A program made the position numbers. A stretch of DNA of 6,544 nt from a virus (Duplodnaviria; Heunggongvirae; Uroviricota; Caudoviricetes). The stretch lies in the IMG/VR virus record IMGVR_UViG_2534682160_000009. One strand, 5' to 3'. The stretch's first letter is position 1, and every line of letters begins with the position of its first letter. Shown piece by piece: positions 1 to 3,000 of this stretch.

Positions 1-3000
1 ATGAGCAGCGCAATTCATAGACTTAGCGACACTCTTTTACGAAAATTAAGCGGATCACCAACCACAAAAAACGCCTTTTTTAATGACGGTGGCAATCTTA
101 GCGTAAGACATTCCACCAGCGGCCTGTTAACCTGGTATTTCACTTACAGGGCCGGAACTGGTAGGCAGGTATCACCGGAACGTCTGAGACTGGGCAATTA
201 TCCCGATCTGAGCCTGAAAGCAGCCAGGGAAAAAGCAGCACAGTGTCGCGCCTGGCTGGCTGAGGGGAAAAATCCGCGCTATGAGCTTAATCGTGCTGTA
301 CAGGATGCGTTAGCCCCCGTGACAGTTAAGGAAGCGCTCACTTACTGGCTTGAATCGTATGCAAAGGAAAAGCGCACTGACTACGAATCACTGAAAAGCC
401 GGATCAATAAACACATAATCAGCCAGATTGGCGCTTTGCCGTTGGAAAAATGCGAGCTACGGCACTGGTTGGCATGTTTTGACCAGATGGCAAAGCGAAG
501 CCCAGTATCTGCCGGATTTTTGCTACAGGTATGCAAACAGGCGCTTAAGTACTGCCGAAAACGACGATACGCAATCAGCAACGTTCTTGATGATATGGTT
601 GTCGGTGATGTGGGAAAAAAAGCAGAAGTGAGCGAGCGCGTACTAACAAATAAGGAGCTTGGGGAATTACTCCGCGCCCTGGATGACAAAATATTCCCGC
701 CATACTACAGCGCCCTAATTCGCCTCCTGATTGTTTTTGGATGCCGTACCACTGAGCTAAGGCGCTCTGAGGTGCAGGAGTGGGATTTTAAAGAAATGCT
801 CTGGACAGTACCGAAGGAGCACAGCAAAACGAAGGTCGCCATATTCAGGCCAATACCGGAAAGCATTTTGCCGTTCGTCACGCAACTGGTGGAGCAGAAC
901 AGACACACAGGCTTATTGCTTGGTGAACTGAAAGGACAATCTTCGGTAGCAGAGTACGGAAGAACAGCGCACAGACGAATTAATCAAGCCCCCTGGACGT
1001 TACACGATATCCGGCACACATTTACAACCATGCTGAACGATTTAGGCGTGGAGCCGCATATTGTCGAGCAGCTTACAGCCCACCAGATGCCAGGGATGCA
1101 ACGAGTCTATAACCACTCCCGCTACCTTGATGCAAAACGTGATGCTCTTAATCTATGGGTAGACCGTCTCGAGCTTCTCCAGAACAATGATGAAAAAATC
1201 GTTGTTATGACCCCGCGAATTTACCCCCAAAATTCTTGACAAATTACGGCTGTTTTTCTTTAAGAGATTACAGCCGTGAATAGATCTTAGAATATCGGGG
1301 AATATCTGCAAATATCTTCTCTTTATATGTGTCAACTATCGAAAAAAATTGAAATGTCTTCTTCTGAGTTCTTATTCTCTGTTTCTTGATTGTTCCAACA
1401 CCTGATGGTTTATCTATTTGTTTTTAATGAGTTAATTCAGGTGTCATGCCAAATGACGACATTTTTTGTTGCGTCGCTTAAAAACTCGTGACACGATTTT
1501 AAACACTAACGAGCTTCTACGAACCTTAGCGAACAAAGCCTTTAGCATGGTTGTGTTTTTAATTTAAGAGGTGAAAAAGAATCTAAGTAATATCCGATCT
1601 CATATATCTACAGCTAAGAGAAAAGTTTATATACGTAATTTTTATGTAGGTTTTTGTATGCGTGAAATAAATGAAGATCGCGTAATCCGTGAGGATGAAT
1701 GTCGTAAGTTAACTGGAGTGTGTCGCACTACACGCTACGAACTGGAGAAAAAAGGGAGCTTTCCGTCTCGCCGTAATCTTGGTGGGCGTTCTGTAGGTTG
1801 GCTGCTGTCCGAGGTTATGGAATGGGTTAAAAGCCGGGATCGCATTAATTCAGGTAAGGCAGCGTAAAGGGGAGCATATGACACATAAAACAAAGGCGAC
1901 CCGGATCAGAGGTCGCCAATGGGAAAACACTAAACATAAGCCCGAACATCATAGCGATTTGCTGGTTGGTGGGCAATGTGCTCAGTGTGCTGGCTTGCTG
2001 GTGGACTATCAGCCTTTTGGTTCTATGCCTTCTTTGCGTAGCTTGTCACGACAGGCATTTTTAACCCATGAACTGAAATTACCAGGCCCAGCAACTTCGT
2101 TAATTTGTTGCAACAATGTGTCTTCGAAGCGGATGTTTTTCTTTGTGCTGCCAGAGCGATCAAATTTTGGTTTCTCATTTTTTCTTGCATTGGTACGTAC
2201 CACCGTTATAAACTGAAACCCAATGGTACGTACCATATTGAAGATACGCAACCATTAAATACAGCGAAGCCCCGCAGTGGTGGAACACTCGCAGGGCTTC
2301 TAACCACCAACGATAACGAGAGTATCGAGGTAGCTATGTTAAATCATACCACACACCCGCAAGGGCGGGACTCGCACAACCTGAATAAATTCACCTGGCG
2401 CTTTATGCAGTGCCTGACAGACAGCATTGCAATATTCACCGTTACCGCTGCCACTGAGCGCGAAGCCCGCGCCCAGCTGCCGCGCGCACATCTGATTTTT
2501 GTCGCCCGCATTCGCCAGGGGGTGAGTCATGCATAAAATACCCTTTGATGTTCTTATTCATTCTGAAAACGCATTAATTAAAGCGCGCGAAATGAATGCG
2601 TTGTTAGGCAAATTAATTGAAGTGCCGGAATCTGGCGAAGAATCTTCGTCATTAATGTTTGCAGCCATTCAGACATTACTATCGCCTGTTATTGATGAAC
2701 TGGATAAGGCAATGGATATTATCGAAAATAATAAAGCGCCCCACACCGGAGAATAAAAATAATGAAACTTAAATATTCTGGCTTAACTGCCAGTGGCAAA
2801 ACTCGCACTAAATTCATGCGCGGTGATATTTACCGCGACCAGTACGGCGGCACGGTAATGATTAAGGGCGTGGAGGAACGGCGCGTAACTTACCGCCGTG
2901 AAGGTTACGAATATGATTGCGTGATGCCCGTTTATCAGTTCCGGCGTGATTTTTCTCTGGTACAGACCGCGCCGCATAACGTGCCCACCAGCAACGCCAG

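What the first reader, a model, noticed from the sequence alone, without database searches (positions are those of the whole stretch)
2264..2473. Candidate RNA-based immunity/attenuation element (P4 CI-RNA-like) in the leader of the replication operon
Two direct repeats GCGAAGCCC about 195 nt apart flank a segment (GCAGGGCTTC, 2291-2300) complementary to both, embedded in a GC-rich region with several alternative hairpins and a possible pseudoknot (TGGTGG / CCACCA). In phage P4, immunity works through a small processed RNA whose internal sequence pairs with two directly repeated target sites on the nascent leader and causes premature termination. This architecture is the same in outline but the sequence is different, so it could be a divergent or undescribed variant.
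Basis: partly seen in the sequence, partly recalled or inferred. Interest (0 to 1): 0.7.

Follow-up and report, generated by a model that had tools for sequence, protein, structure and literature searches.

The report
Antisense RNA cassette guarding satellite replication operon
The sequence flagged as a phage-P4-style immunity RNA is more likely a small RNA, not found in Rfam 15 or in the papers searched, read from the opposite strand across the ribosome-binding site of the first gene of a phage-satellite island's replication operon; the cassette is in about a quarter of complete E. coli genomes.

Summary
The repeats and the complementary segment exist, but the P4 CI-like reading fails. There is no C4 or isrK covariance-model hit, although both are found in P4 by the same scan. 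The second GCGAAGCCC (2460-2468) is the R-E-A-R codons of the conserved TE.EAR motif of an Icd-like protein, and a GAAGCCC-type copy recurs at that site in only about 30 of 99 relatives. The TGGTGG/CCACCA pseudoknot is kept in 10 of 99.

What is conserved is a cassette found in 99 distinct sequences across Enterobacterales and beyond, and in 1276 of 5426 complete E. coli genomes, including CFT073. Three lines of evidence put its structure on the minus strand:
- Non-Watson-Crick cells read as G.U 125 times against A.C 10 times.
- The large hairpin is followed by a U-rich tail on that strand.
- A TAnnnT hexamer with G at -14 sits at a fixed distance in 92 of 99 sequences, whatever protein is encoded there.

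I read this as a cis-antisense RNA of about 78 nt (about 2335 to 2257, minus strand). It would cover the Shine-Dalgarno region (in most relatives also the start codon) of the first gene of the icd-primase operon of an EcCICFT073-type island. It would do the job of P4 CI or P1 C4 but is unrelated to them. No transcript has been shown.

The parts
2257..2335 (-). Predicted cis-antisense small RNA gene, about 78 nt. The 5' end is at the conserved A (2335). The 3' end is within the U-rich tail (about 2257-2259).
   Evidence: Covariance model R1, built from 97 homologues, scores 79.5 bits at 2252-2337(-). The minus-strand fold is -37.3 kcal/mol (z=-5.1), against -27.7 (z=-3.1) for the plus strand. 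The ends are inferred from the promoter and terminator signals. No transcript data.
2343..2351 (-). Extended -10 promoter of the antisense RNA. It reads TGG-TATGAT on the minus strand and is embedded in codons 3-6 of the icd-like gene.
   Evidence: TAnnnT lies at a fixed offset (34-38 nt from the hairpin) in 92 of 99 relatives, against a background of 2.7% per position. G at -14 in 84 of 92, and no conserved -35. The hexamer is kept although the encoded residues differ (QH, QS, DS, KF, NH, KC and others) and the ORF belongs to at least 12 unrelated families.
2266..2300 (-). Terminator-like hairpin of the antisense RNA. It has a 10-bp lower stem with one U.G, a bulge, a 4-bp upper stem and a variable 6-nt loop.
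   Evidence: 98.4% of cells are paired across 97 sequences, with compensatory changes at 4 pairs. RNAalifold finds the same helix unaided. At three lower-stem pairs the G.U counts on the minus reading are 21, 47 and 15.
2257..2265 (-). U-rich tail after the hairpin (GCUGUAUUU in the window; UUCGUUGUUUUU-like in many relatives).
   Evidence: On the minus strand, a mean of 6.8 of 12 positions are U from the base of the G+C core. The corresponding 12 nt on the plus strand hold 2.5 T. The block shared among E. coli genomes ends here, at about 2263.
2302..2335 (-). 5' stem-loop of the antisense RNA. Helix P1 pairs 2329-2335 with 2302-2308. The inner helix pairs 2323-2327 with 2311-2315. The loop is 2316-2322. 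The CCUC at 2330-2327 is complementary to the Shine-Dalgarno sequence.
   Evidence: The inner helix is 94.4% paired, and all 5 of its pairs show changes on both sides. P1 is 87.8% paired, and its pair at columns 8-43 is G.U in 87 of 97 sequences, which would be A.C on the plus strand.
2327..2338 (+). Target on the sense mRNA: Shine-Dalgarno GAGG (2327-2330) and the ATG (2336-2338) of the icd-like gene.
   Evidence: Read from the sequence and ORF list. The predicted RNA is complementary up to 2335, so in this window it covers the Shine-Dalgarno sequence and spacer but stops 1 nt short of the ATG. In most relatives the RNA starts AGCCAU and also covers ATGGCT.
2336..2536 (+). Icd-like (host cell division inhibitor) gene, first cistron of the operon.
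   Evidence: NF033153, E=1.3e-14. P4's old 'cI' ORF carries the same domain (E=7.8e-21). Repeat 2 is the codons R42-E43-A44-R45.
2185..2235 (+). Sense promoter of the operon (TTGCAT 2185-2190, TATAAA 2207-2212) with two copies of the palindrome-bearing operator CAWTGGTACGTACCA (2188-2202 and 2221-2235).
   Evidence: The repeat is exact over 12 nt, with 33-bp spacing. Homologues have TTGAC(A/G) at the aligned position, and their repeats differ between elements. The promoter is assigned by eye and by alignment. The simple scan did not list it.
2009..2251 (-). Divergent small gene of the YlcI/YnfO (DUF3950) family, a candidate protein repressor. Its true start codon is uncertain.
   Evidence: NF041551, E=3.5e-7. 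PF13132, E=9e-8. A small leftward ORF starts 30-300 nt left of the hairpin in 82 of 98 non-redundant loci.
2529..4812 (+). Rest of the operon: orf75 (2529-2756), DUF4222 (2762-3061) and a D5_N/DUF5906/Pox_D5 primase-helicase (3058-4812). Two junctions overlap: icd/orf75 and DUF4222/primase.
   Evidence: Overlaps at 2529-2536 and 3058-3061 are read.

Best explanation
The window is an EcCICFT073-type Gram-negative phage-inducible chromosomal island: int, alpA, a divergent small YlcI/YnfO gene, then a rightward operon running icd-like, orf75, DUF4222, primase, followed by an iteron origin and SSB.

Inside the 5' end of that operon lies a self-contained cassette on the opposite strand:
- an extended -10 promoter (TGGTATGAT, 2351-2343) buried in the first codons of icd;
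- a transcription start at the conserved A (2335);
- a 5' stem-loop (2335-2302);
- a G+C-rich terminator-like hairpin (2300-2266) with a U-rich tail.

It should produce an RNA of about 78 nt that is perfectly complementary to the operon's 5' leader. That includes the Shine-Dalgarno sequence, and in most relatives also the start codon and second codon.

Inferred mechanism:
1. The RNA is made constitutively in the quiescent island.
2. It pairs with any leaky sense transcript, probably starting with loop-loop contacts. This blocks ribosome binding at the first cistron.
3. Because the downstream cistrons overlap or abut, loss of translation should expose the mRNA to decay or Rho-dependent polarity. 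The cell-division inhibitor and the replication genes therefore stay silent.
4. On induction, a burst of sense transcription outruns the antisense RNA.
5. The hypervariable hairpin loops would give each island its own specificity, so that co-resident islands do not cross-regulate.

Status of the steps. Shown by computation: the conserved structure, its strand, the promoter-like and terminator-like signals, the independence from the downstream protein family, and the distribution. Inferred: that the RNA is made, its exact ends, that it represses, and how.
For: (1) Structure. Across 97 distinct sequences, 94.6-97.3% of cells form standard pairs. Pairs with changes on both sides number 9-10. None of 500 shuffles reaches the observed covariation score, and slid controls pair at 35-45%. 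RNAalifold recovers the same helices unaided.

(2) Strand. Read on the minus strand, non-Watson-Crick cells are G.U 125 against A.C 10. In columns my search pattern left free the counts are 89 against 7. Pairing is 97.3% on the minus strand and 90.7% on the plus strand. Helix P1 has G.U in 87 of 97 sequences at one pair. The fold is -37.3 kcal/mol on the minus strand against -27.7 on the plus strand.

(3) Promoter. TAnnnT occurs at a fixed distance in 92 of 99. G at -14 occurs in 84 of 92, and a conserved A lies 7 nt downstream in 88 of 92. These are kept across at least 12 unrelated downstream ORF families.

(4) Terminator. The U-rich tail is on the minus strand only. The block shared among E. 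coli genomes runs from about 2263 to 2406. Its left edge falls in the predicted RNA's U-rich tail, and its right edge lies about 55 nt beyond the -10 hexamer in the upstream direction of the antisense promoter.

(5) Independent members. CFT073 is not matched by my search pattern, so it was not among the sequences the model was built from; it scores 61.5 bits, E=2.4e-15. Extra copies not matched by the pattern keep the structure with compensatory changes.

(6) Context. Of loci with enough flank, 33 of 63 have a primase homologue downstream on the same strand, and 30 of 72 have an integrase homologue upstream. The island layout matches published Gram-negative PICIs (PMC10111431).
Against: - No transcript evidence of any kind is available here.
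- The window's own U tail is interrupted (GCUGUAUUU), and the simple terminator scan did not flag it.
- There is no conserved -35.
- Many invariant positions were fixed by my retrieval patterns, so the conservation of TGGT.AGA.GCCC is overstated. Sequences are phylogenetically related, so the cell counts are not independent events.
- A small leftward gene lies just beyond the hairpin in 82 of 98 loci. The leftward transcript could therefore read through into it and not end as a discrete small RNA.
- The mirror-image hairpins also form in the sense leader and could act there.
Confidence: 0.62

Rival explanations
1. A same-strand, processed P4 CI/P1 C4-like immunity RNA whose internal segment (2291-2300) pairs with two directly repeated targets (2264 and 2460) on the nascent leader and causes premature termination.
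For: The position is right: P4 has isrK/seqA and C4/CI directly upstream of its Icd-like ORF. The 9-mer occurs more often in the window than shuffles predict. About 30 of 99 relatives also have GAAGCCC-type words at the same ORF position.
Against: - No C4 or isrK hit even at E<=10, with positive controls.
- The structure's wobble pattern points to the other strand.
- Repeat 2 is the E-A-R codons of a conserved protein motif. It is absent in about 60 of 99 relatives, and where the arm varies the site does not follow it (L006, L142, L110).
- The pseudoknot is kept in 10 of 99.
- W12-1 carries this cassette and, separately, a real isrK+C4 pair downstream, so the two are different things.
Confidence: 0.03
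2. A purely cis-acting structure of the sense 5' leader, with no functional antisense RNA. The hairpins at 2266-2300 and 2311-2327 would act as a translational operator, an RNase III or RNA-binding-protein site, or an mRNA stabiliser.
For: The element always sits between the sense promoter and the first start codon, with the Shine-Dalgarno sequence in or next to the second hairpin. The plus strand also folds better than shuffles (z=-3.1).
Against: On the plus strand, 125 cells would be A.C mismatches against 10 G.U, and helix P1 would be broken in 87 of 97 sequences. This model does not explain the conserved minus-strand TAnnnT with G at -14 inside unrelated ORFs, nor the minus-strand U tail.
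Confidence: 0.12
3. The leftward promoter is real, but its main product is a longer transcript that reads through the hairpin into the divergent small repressor gene (YlcI/YnfO or equivalent). This resembles lambda PRE or the face-to-face promoters of phage 186. Antisense interference with the operon would be a by-product, or would act through convergent transcription.
For: A small leftward ORF starts 30-300 nt beyond the hairpin in 82 of 98 loci. The window's U tail is imperfect. The sense and leftward start sites face each other about 115 bp apart (inference).
Against: The hairpin is G+C-rich with 13-14 pairs, and in many relatives it is followed by 8-10 U in 12 nt. Sequence conservation stops at the tail, and the stretch up to the leftward gene is the most variable part of the locus. 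The window has a plausible separate leftward promoter (TTGCGT, 17 nt, TACCAT at 2248-2220), which I read by eye.
Confidence: 0.18
4. A DNA-level element, such as a protein-binding inverted repeat or a single-strand hairpin used in replication or priming, or simply chance similarity.
For: Inverted repeats with compensatory changes are also expected for dimeric protein sites. A primase is encoded downstream.
Against: A duplex protein site gives no reason for a bias of 125 to 10 towards G.T on one strand. The recognisable iteron origin lies elsewhere, at 4826-5055. The linked promoter-like and U-tail signals point to transcription. Chance is excluded by 99 distinct conserved copies.
Confidence: 0.04

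Closest known systems
P4 CI RNA / P1-P7 C4 antisense RNA (Rfam RF01695), with the seqA-type leader (Rfam isrK, RF01394)
   Same: Same genomic slot and probably the same job: a small RNA placed immediately 5' of an Icd-like first cistron of an early or replication operon in a satellite or phage. It would keep that operon silent by acting on the leader and ribosome-binding region. P1 c4 blocking icd translation with downstream polarity is from my own knowledge.
   Different: CI and C4 are cut out of the same strand as the operon and act on short repeated targets. This element reads on the opposite strand, has its own promoter and terminator, is fully complementary to its target, has a different fold, and gives no hit to either model. 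In W12-1 both systems occur side by side.
FinP antisense RNA / traJ leader of F-like plasmids
   Same: An RNA of about 79 nt made of two stem-loops. The first is complementary to the ribosome-binding site and first codons of the first regulatory gene, and the second serves as terminator. It is transcribed from a promoter inside the target's 5' region (own knowledge). The architecture here is the same in outline.
   Different: No sequence or model similarity: no Rfam hit at all. The host element is a phage satellite, not a conjugative plasmid. A FinO/ProQ-type chaperone requirement is unknown. The linker between the two hairpins is only about 1 nt.
IS10 RNA-OUT / RNA-IN, and the P22 sar RNA / ant pair
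   Same: A short cis-antisense RNA whose promoter lies within the first codons of the target gene and reads outward. It covers the ribosome-binding site and start codon of a gene whose leaky expression is harmful to the element (own knowledge).
   Different: Unrelated sequences and folds. Here the cassette is portable and precedes at least 12 unrelated first genes. It also heads a multi-gene replication operon.
Type I toxin-antitoxin pairs (such as hok/Sok)
   Same: A small toxic protein (Icd family, a cell-division inhibitor) whose translation would be blocked by an overlapping antisense RNA.
   Different: The target is the first cistron of a long operon, and about 30% of the distinct first ORFs next to the cassette are not Icd-like. 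There is no evidence for the differential RNA stability or post-segregational killing that defines these systems.

Membership tests
P4 CI / P1 C4 immunity RNA (Rfam C4, RF01695) | Match to the C4 covariance model | tested here: not met
   No hit at the gathering score over the whole window or at E<=10 over 1900-2800. Positive controls: P4 at 74.9 bits and W12-1 at 76.4 bits.
P4 CI / P1 C4 immunity RNA (Rfam C4, RF01695) | A seqA-type upstream target region detectable with the isrK model | tested here: not met
   No isrK hit. P4 gives 60.8 bits. PMC10111431 states that the C4 and isrK profiles detect CI and seqA relatives.
P4 CI / P1 C4 immunity RNA (Rfam C4, RF01695) | Internal segment complementary to two directly repeated targets, with the relationship conserved among relatives | tested here: not met
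   The second site is present in about 30 of 99 relatives, always as E-A-R codons, with no covariation with the arm.
P4 CI / P1 C4 immunity RNA (Rfam C4, RF01695) | RNA encoded on the same strand as the operon it controls | tested here: not met
   The wobble asymmetry is G.U 125 against A.C 10 on the minus reading. The promoter-like and U-tail signals are on the minus strand.
P4 CI / P1 C4 immunity RNA (Rfam C4, RF01695) | Location immediately 5' of an Icd-like gene at the head of the early operon | tested here: met
   This is a shared position only.
P4 CI / P1 C4 immunity RNA (Rfam C4, RF01695) | Maturation by processing of the leader transcript (RNase P, PNPase) | not testable with these tools
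   Needs RNA end mapping.
cis-encoded antisense RNA translational repressors (FinP, RNA-OUT, Sar type) | Own promoter on the opposite strand within the target's 5' region | tested here: met
   TAnnnT in 92 of 99 and G at -14 in 84 of 92, at a fixed distance and independent of the encoded protein. This is sequence evidence only.
cis-encoded antisense RNA translational repressors (FinP, RNA-OUT, Sar type) | Intrinsic terminator giving a discrete short RNA | tested here: inconclusive
   A conserved G+C-rich hairpin with a U-rich tail on the minus strand. However, the window's tail is interrupted, the simple scan gave no call, and a leftward gene lies beyond it.
cis-encoded antisense RNA translational repressors (FinP, RNA-OUT, Sar type) | Overlap with the target's ribosome-binding site or start codon | tested here: met
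   The predicted RNA (2335-2257) covers the Shine-Dalgarno sequence at 2327-2330. In most relatives it starts AGCCAU, opposite ATGGCT.
cis-encoded antisense RNA translational repressors (FinP, RNA-OUT, Sar type) | The RNA exists and represses the target | not testable with these tools
   Needs a Northern blot or RNA-seq, and reporter fusions.
Any curated Rfam 15 family, including FinP and other antisense RNAs | Covariance-model match on either strand | tested here: not met
   The best match is RsaJ at 20.5 bits against a gathering score of 100, which is a hit to a generic hairpin.
Icd-like host cell division inhibitor (NF033153) | Profile match above the curated cut-off | tested here: met
   54 bits against a cut-off of 25, E=1.3e-14, residues 19-61 of the 2336-2536 ORF.
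Gram-negative phage-inducible chromosomal island (EcCICFT073 type) | Unidirectional int, alpA and pri genes with an origin downstream of pri | tested here: met
   Integrase at 1-1239. Phage_AlpA PF05930, E=3.8e-16. D5_N/DUF5906/Pox_D5 primase. Iterons at 4826-5055. Same gene order as the CFT073 island. The criteria are as stated in PMC10111431. Helper-dependent induction was not tested.

The most novel reading that the evidence does not exclude
A portable antisense-RNA 'immunity cassette' (promoter, about 78-nt RNA and terminator within about 95 bp) is the main RNA-level brake on induction of Gram-negative phage-inducible islands and P4-like satellites. It would take the place of CI/C4 in most of them. 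It has been grafted onto the 5' end of at least a dozen unrelated first genes. Its hypervariable loops would define immunity or incompatibility groups that let up to six islands coexist in one genome without cross-talk.
Probability: 0.4. Interest if true: 0.7.

Novelty: new member of a known kind. Interest (0 to 1): 0.58.

Why it matters
Regulation of Gram-negative phage-inducible islands is currently described in terms of AlpA and helper-phage inducers. RNA-level immunity has been noted only where C4 and isrK hits occur, in 'several' islands (PMC10111431).

A conserved antisense RNA at the head of the replication operon would add a missing control layer. It is present in about 23% of complete E. 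coli genomes, including the model island of CFT073 and the probiotic Nissle 1917, and it occurs across Enterobacterales. It could explain how a toxic cell-division inhibitor and the replication genes are kept silent.

It would also provide a new RNA family for annotation, since Rfam 15 has no model for it. It gives a small handle of about 95 bp for engineering satellite induction, and a possible basis for immunity specificity among co-resident islands.

Tried and rejected
- Rfam scans of the window at the gathering score and at E<=10 gave only weak, implausible matches: RsaJ, TUSC7, mir-547, TD-1, CRISPR-DR57 and ceN61, all far below their gathering scores. I rejected these as chance.
- blastn of 2180-2540 against the phage collection found only a partial match in the induced element vB_KppS-Ant, and no match to P4.
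- Protein-based retrieval of loci with the Icd-like protein found nothing in genome contigs.
- An alignment of diverse Icd-like proteins was too divergent for the search for related loci. The planned unbiased census of Icd genes, sorting those with C4 from those with this cassette, was therefore not done.
- The simple promoter/terminator scan missed both the sense promoter and the interrupted-stem hairpin. I do not treat that as evidence against them, because its pattern cannot represent a bulged stem or a TATAAA -10.
- I tested whether the second GCGAAGCCC covaries with variants of the hairpin arm. Two lineages (L136/L149 and L125/L138) match their own A-variants, but three others mismatch. 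The number of matches at p<=0.05 is what 99 trials would give by chance, so I rejected it.
- Literature searches found no description of this RNA. The queries covered Icd-like plus antisense, P4-like plus sRNA, PICI plus antisense RNA, literal sequence strings, and EcCICFT073. One of these queries was badly posed and uninformative.
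Full report
**1. Setting**

The 6.5-kb window has the layout of a Gram-negative phage-inducible chromosomal island:
- a tyrosine integrase (1-1239);
- an AlpA-family regulator (1658-1867; PF05930, E=3.8e-16);
- a small leftward YlcI/YnfO (DUF3950) gene (2009-2251);
- a rightward operon: Icd-like (2336-2536; NF033153, E=1.3e-14), orf75, DUF4222, and a D5_N/DUF5906/Pox_D5 primase-helicase (3058-4812);
- an iteron field YGTCTACCY (4826-5055);
- an unnamed ORF and an SSB gene.

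The island next to pepT/roxA in E. coli CFT073 has the same gene order. The layout also matches the integration, 'Bro', replication and late zones described for these islands, with int, alpA and pri conserved and the origin downstream of pri (PMC10111431).

**2. The observation**

- GCGAAGCCC at 2264-2272 and 2460-2468, plus a third copy at 495-503 in int;
- GCAGGGCTTC at 2291-2300;
- TGGTGG at 2278-2283 and CCACCA at 2304-2309.

Copy 1 and the complementary segment are simply the two arms of one hairpin (2266-2300). Copy 2 is in frame in the Icd-like ORF as CGC-GAA-GCC-CGC, which is R-E-A-R. This is part of TE.EAR, the most conserved motif of the family. In 14 diverse Icd-like proteins E41 is invariant and R45 is kept in at least 90%.

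**3. Test of the P4 CI-like model**

- Rfam 15 gives no C4 or isrK hit in the window, at the gathering score or at E<=10.
- The same scan finds C4 (74.9 bits) and isrK (60.8 bits) in P4. They lie directly upstream of an Icd-like ORF that is the C-terminal part of the old 'cI' reading frame. The position is therefore analogous, but the element is not the same.
- E. coli W12-1 carries the window's hairpin block and, about 180 nt further on, a separate isrK plus C4 pair ahead of its icd gene. The two are different modules.
- Among 99 distinct relatives, a GAAGCCC-type word recurs at the E-A-R codons in about 30. About 60 have none, and where the hairpin arm varies the site does not follow it.
- Complementarity between the hairpin's apical region and the downstream ACCAC stretch reaches 5 nt or more in only 10 of 99. 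The loop has 33 versions.

**4. What is conserved**

blastn against 5426 complete E. coli genomes shows a mosaic block running from about 2263 to about 2406, shared by well over a thousand genomes with different flanks. A 101-nt query (2252-2352) matches 1276 genomes, 1138 of them over at least 80% of its length, with up to 6 places per genome.

Pattern scans of viral contigs and of one genome per species gave 99 distinct copies. They come from Escherichia, Shigella, Klebsiella, Citrobacter, Enterobacter, Serratia, Yersinia, Pectobacterium, Dickeya, Brenneria, Photorhabdus, Xenorhabdus, Proteus, Edwardsiella, Pantoea and Oceanisphaera. A few contigs are labelled Dechloromonas, Ramlibacter, Burkholderiaceae, Streptomyces and Solibacteraceae.

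On the plus strand the common plan is:
- a 9-bp lower stem (GAAGCCCGG / CCGGGCTTC), a small internal loop, a 4-bp upper stem (AGTG / CACT) and a variable 6-7 nt loop;
- then TRACCAC(C)AAC;
- then a 5-bp hairpin with the Shine-Dalgarno sequence in or beside it;
- then the start codon, usually ATGGCT.

**5. Which strand**

Compensatory changes are plentiful: AGTG/CACT to ACTG/CAGT or GGTG/CACC, CCCGG/CCGGG to CCCCG/CGGGG or CCCAG/CTGGG, and CGATA/TATCG to CGTTA/TAACG or CATTA/TAATG.

The decisive point is the kind of imperfect pair. In the lower stem, read on the plus strand, there are 103 A.C cells against 5 G.U. An A.C on one strand is a G.U on the other.

On an alignment of 97 minus-strand sequences (A2):
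- the two-hairpin structure has 97.3% of cells paired, 9 pairs with changes on both sides, 0 of 500 shuffles reaching the covariation score, and slid controls at 39-44%;
- read on the minus strand there are 125 G.U against 10 A.C, and in columns that my retrieval pattern left free the counts are 89 against 7;
- the mirror structure on the plus strand would be only 90.7% paired.

A further helix appears only on the minus strand. It pairs the RNA's first seven bases (AGCCAUN, or AGCUACC in the window) with the conserved UUGUGGU. One of its pairs is G.U in 87 of 97 sequences. This explains why ATGGCT and ACCACAA are conserved at the nucleotide level.

RNAalifold, given no structure, returns the same helices plus one more covarying pair (55-72). 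For the window itself, the minus strand folds to -37.3 kcal/mol (z=-5.1) and the plus strand to -27.7 (z=-3.1).

**6. Transcription signals on the minus strand**

- The big hairpin is followed by a U-rich tail. From the base of the G+C core, a mean of 6.8 of 12 positions are U, and many members read UUUGUUGUUUUU. The plus-strand side has 2.5 T.
- Upstream on the minus strand, a TAnnnT hexamer lies 34-38 nt from the hairpin in 92 of 99 sequences, against a background of 2.7% per position.
- G occupies -14 in 84 of 92, T or G occupies -15, nothing is conserved around -35, and an A lies 7 nt downstream in 88 of 92. This is the signature of an extended -10 promoter with its start site.
- In the window the motif is TGG-TATGAT (2351-2343) with the A at 2335.
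- The hexamer lies inside the first codons of the downstream ORF, yet the residues encoded there vary (QH, QS, DS, KF, NH, KC, HS, NF, DT). The ORF is Icd-like in only 70 of 101 distinct cases. At least 12 unrelated protein families share the cassette up to the hexamer and then diverge.

A constraint that ignores the protein and respects a fixed distance to an RNA structure on the other strand is best read as a promoter.

**7. The model and independent members**

A covariance model (R1, 86 positions, 18 pairs) built from A2 gives these results:
- 79.5 bits at 2252-2337(-) in the window, which is expected because the window is in the training set;
- nothing in P4;
- 61.5 bits (E=2.4e-15) in the CFT073 island, whose loop region my search pattern does not match, so it was not among the sequences the model was built from;
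- extra copies that the search pattern had not matched: L196:5795 has a 7-U tail, and L175:754 has GACGCC/GGCGUU compensations;
- degraded second copies in Photorhabdus.

**8. Mechanism (inferred)**

The predicted RNA of about 78 nt (2335 to about 2257) is fully complementary to the operon leader. In the window it covers the Shine-Dalgarno GAGG (2327-2330) and stops one base short of the ATG. In most relatives it begins AGCCAU and also covers the start codon and codon 2, with the anti-Shine-Dalgarno CUCC exposed in the apical loop of its 5' hairpin.

1. Pairing should block initiation at the first cistron.
2. Two junctions overlap (icd/orf75 at 2529-2536; DUF4222/primase at 3058-3061) and orf75 and DUF4222 are 5 nt apart. 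Loss of translation would therefore be expected to silence the whole replication operon through decay or Rho-dependent polarity. From my own knowledge, this is how c4 RNA acts on icd-ant in P1.
3. The sense promoter (TTGCAT 2185-2190, TATAAA 2207-2212) is flanked by two copies of CAWTGGTACGTACCA, 33 bp apart. In relatives, both this repeat and the divergent small gene change together. A protein repressor probably provides a first layer of control and the antisense RNA a second.
4. The hypervariable loops are automatically matched between RNA and target. They could set specificity among co-resident islands.

**9. Rivals**

- A cis-only role for the sense-leader hairpins is contradicted by the wobble asymmetry and by the minus-strand signals.
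- The strongest rival is that the leftward transcript continues into the small leftward gene, which is present in 82 of 98 loci, in the manner of lambda PRE. The strong hairpin, the U tails in many members, and the end of conservation exactly at the tail argue for termination. Only RNA 3'-end mapping can settle this.
- A DNA-level role is unlikely, given the one-strand bias and the separate iteron origin.

**10. Caveats**

- There are no expression data.
- Many 'invariant' bases were imposed by my retrieval patterns.
- Sequences are related, so the cell counts overstate the number of independent events.
- The window's own U tail is mediocre.
- The census of Icd genes with C4 against those with this cassette could not be done.
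- The text library searched holds no description of this RNA, and Rfam 15 has no matching family. Absence from these sources is not proof of novelty.

**11. Verdict**

The finding as stated, a divergent P4 CI-like RNA, is not what is there. The locus does hold a well-supported candidate: a cis-antisense RNA cassette, not found in Rfam 15 or the searched literature, that probably does the job P4 assigns to CI. It is a new member of a familiar class (FinP, RNA-OUT and Sar-type antisense repressors), it is widespread in phage satellites, and it can be tested directly in CFT073.

Noticed in passing
window 2188-2202 and 2221-2235: Two copies of CAWTGGTACGTACCA, each with a perfect 12-nt palindrome, lie 33 bp apart and bracket the -10 of the presumed operon promoter. 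Relatives have different repeats at the same place, paired with different divergent small genes. These look like operators for the YlcI/YnfO-type protein.
   Followed up: partly
window 4826-5055: A field of YGTCTACCY iterons in both orientations lies just downstream of the primase gene. This is the expected replication origin of this island type.
   Followed up: partly
window 495-503: A third exact copy of GCGAAGCCC lies inside the integrase gene (3 copies in the window against 0.07 expected from shuffles). No role is evident, and it is probably coincidence.
   Followed up: no
window 2357-2370: A CCCGC-AAGG-GCGGG hairpin lies inside the N-terminal codons of icd. It is conserved at the nucleotide level in the window's subgroup, and it sits where a -35 element of the antisense promoter would be. 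Its function is unknown.
   Followed up: no
L005 (E. coli W12-1) 1488-1573, 1680-1756, 1778-1865: One island carries the antisense cassette and then, downstream, a genuine isrK plus C4 pair ahead of its icd gene. The region between is annotated as an 'ash family' pseudogene. This looks like a natural hybrid of the two RNA control systems.
   Followed up: partly
L107, L119, L145, L161, L173 (Photorhabdus): Two copies of the cassette lie about 1.2 kb apart on the same strand. The second copy has a decayed lower stem (53-56 bits against 83.5).
   Followed up: no
loci (for example L109, L092, L021, L074, L151, L198): The cassette precedes at least 12 protein families unrelated to Icd. All of them begin MA... 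from the shared ATGGCT, so their first 5-6 codons are dictated by the RNA gene and its promoter.
   Followed up: partly
L154 (Streptomyces sp. contig), L172 (Solibacteraceae MAG), L152, L166, L171, L181 (Betaproteobacteria): Good copies of the cassette occur in contigs labelled far outside Enterobacterales. This could be real horizontal spread or contamination or mis-binning. I did not examine it.
   Followed up: no
window 1878-2216 (+): A 112-aa ORF with no family hit overlaps the YlcI/YnfO gene on the other strand. In relatives this stretch is annotated as a BRO-N pseudogene or a truncated hypothetical protein, so it may be a remnant.
   Followed up: no
window 2529-2536 and 3058-3061: The icd stop and orf75 start overlap by 8 nt, and the DUF4222 stop and primase start overlap by 4 nt. 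This suggests translational coupling along the operon.
   Followed up: no
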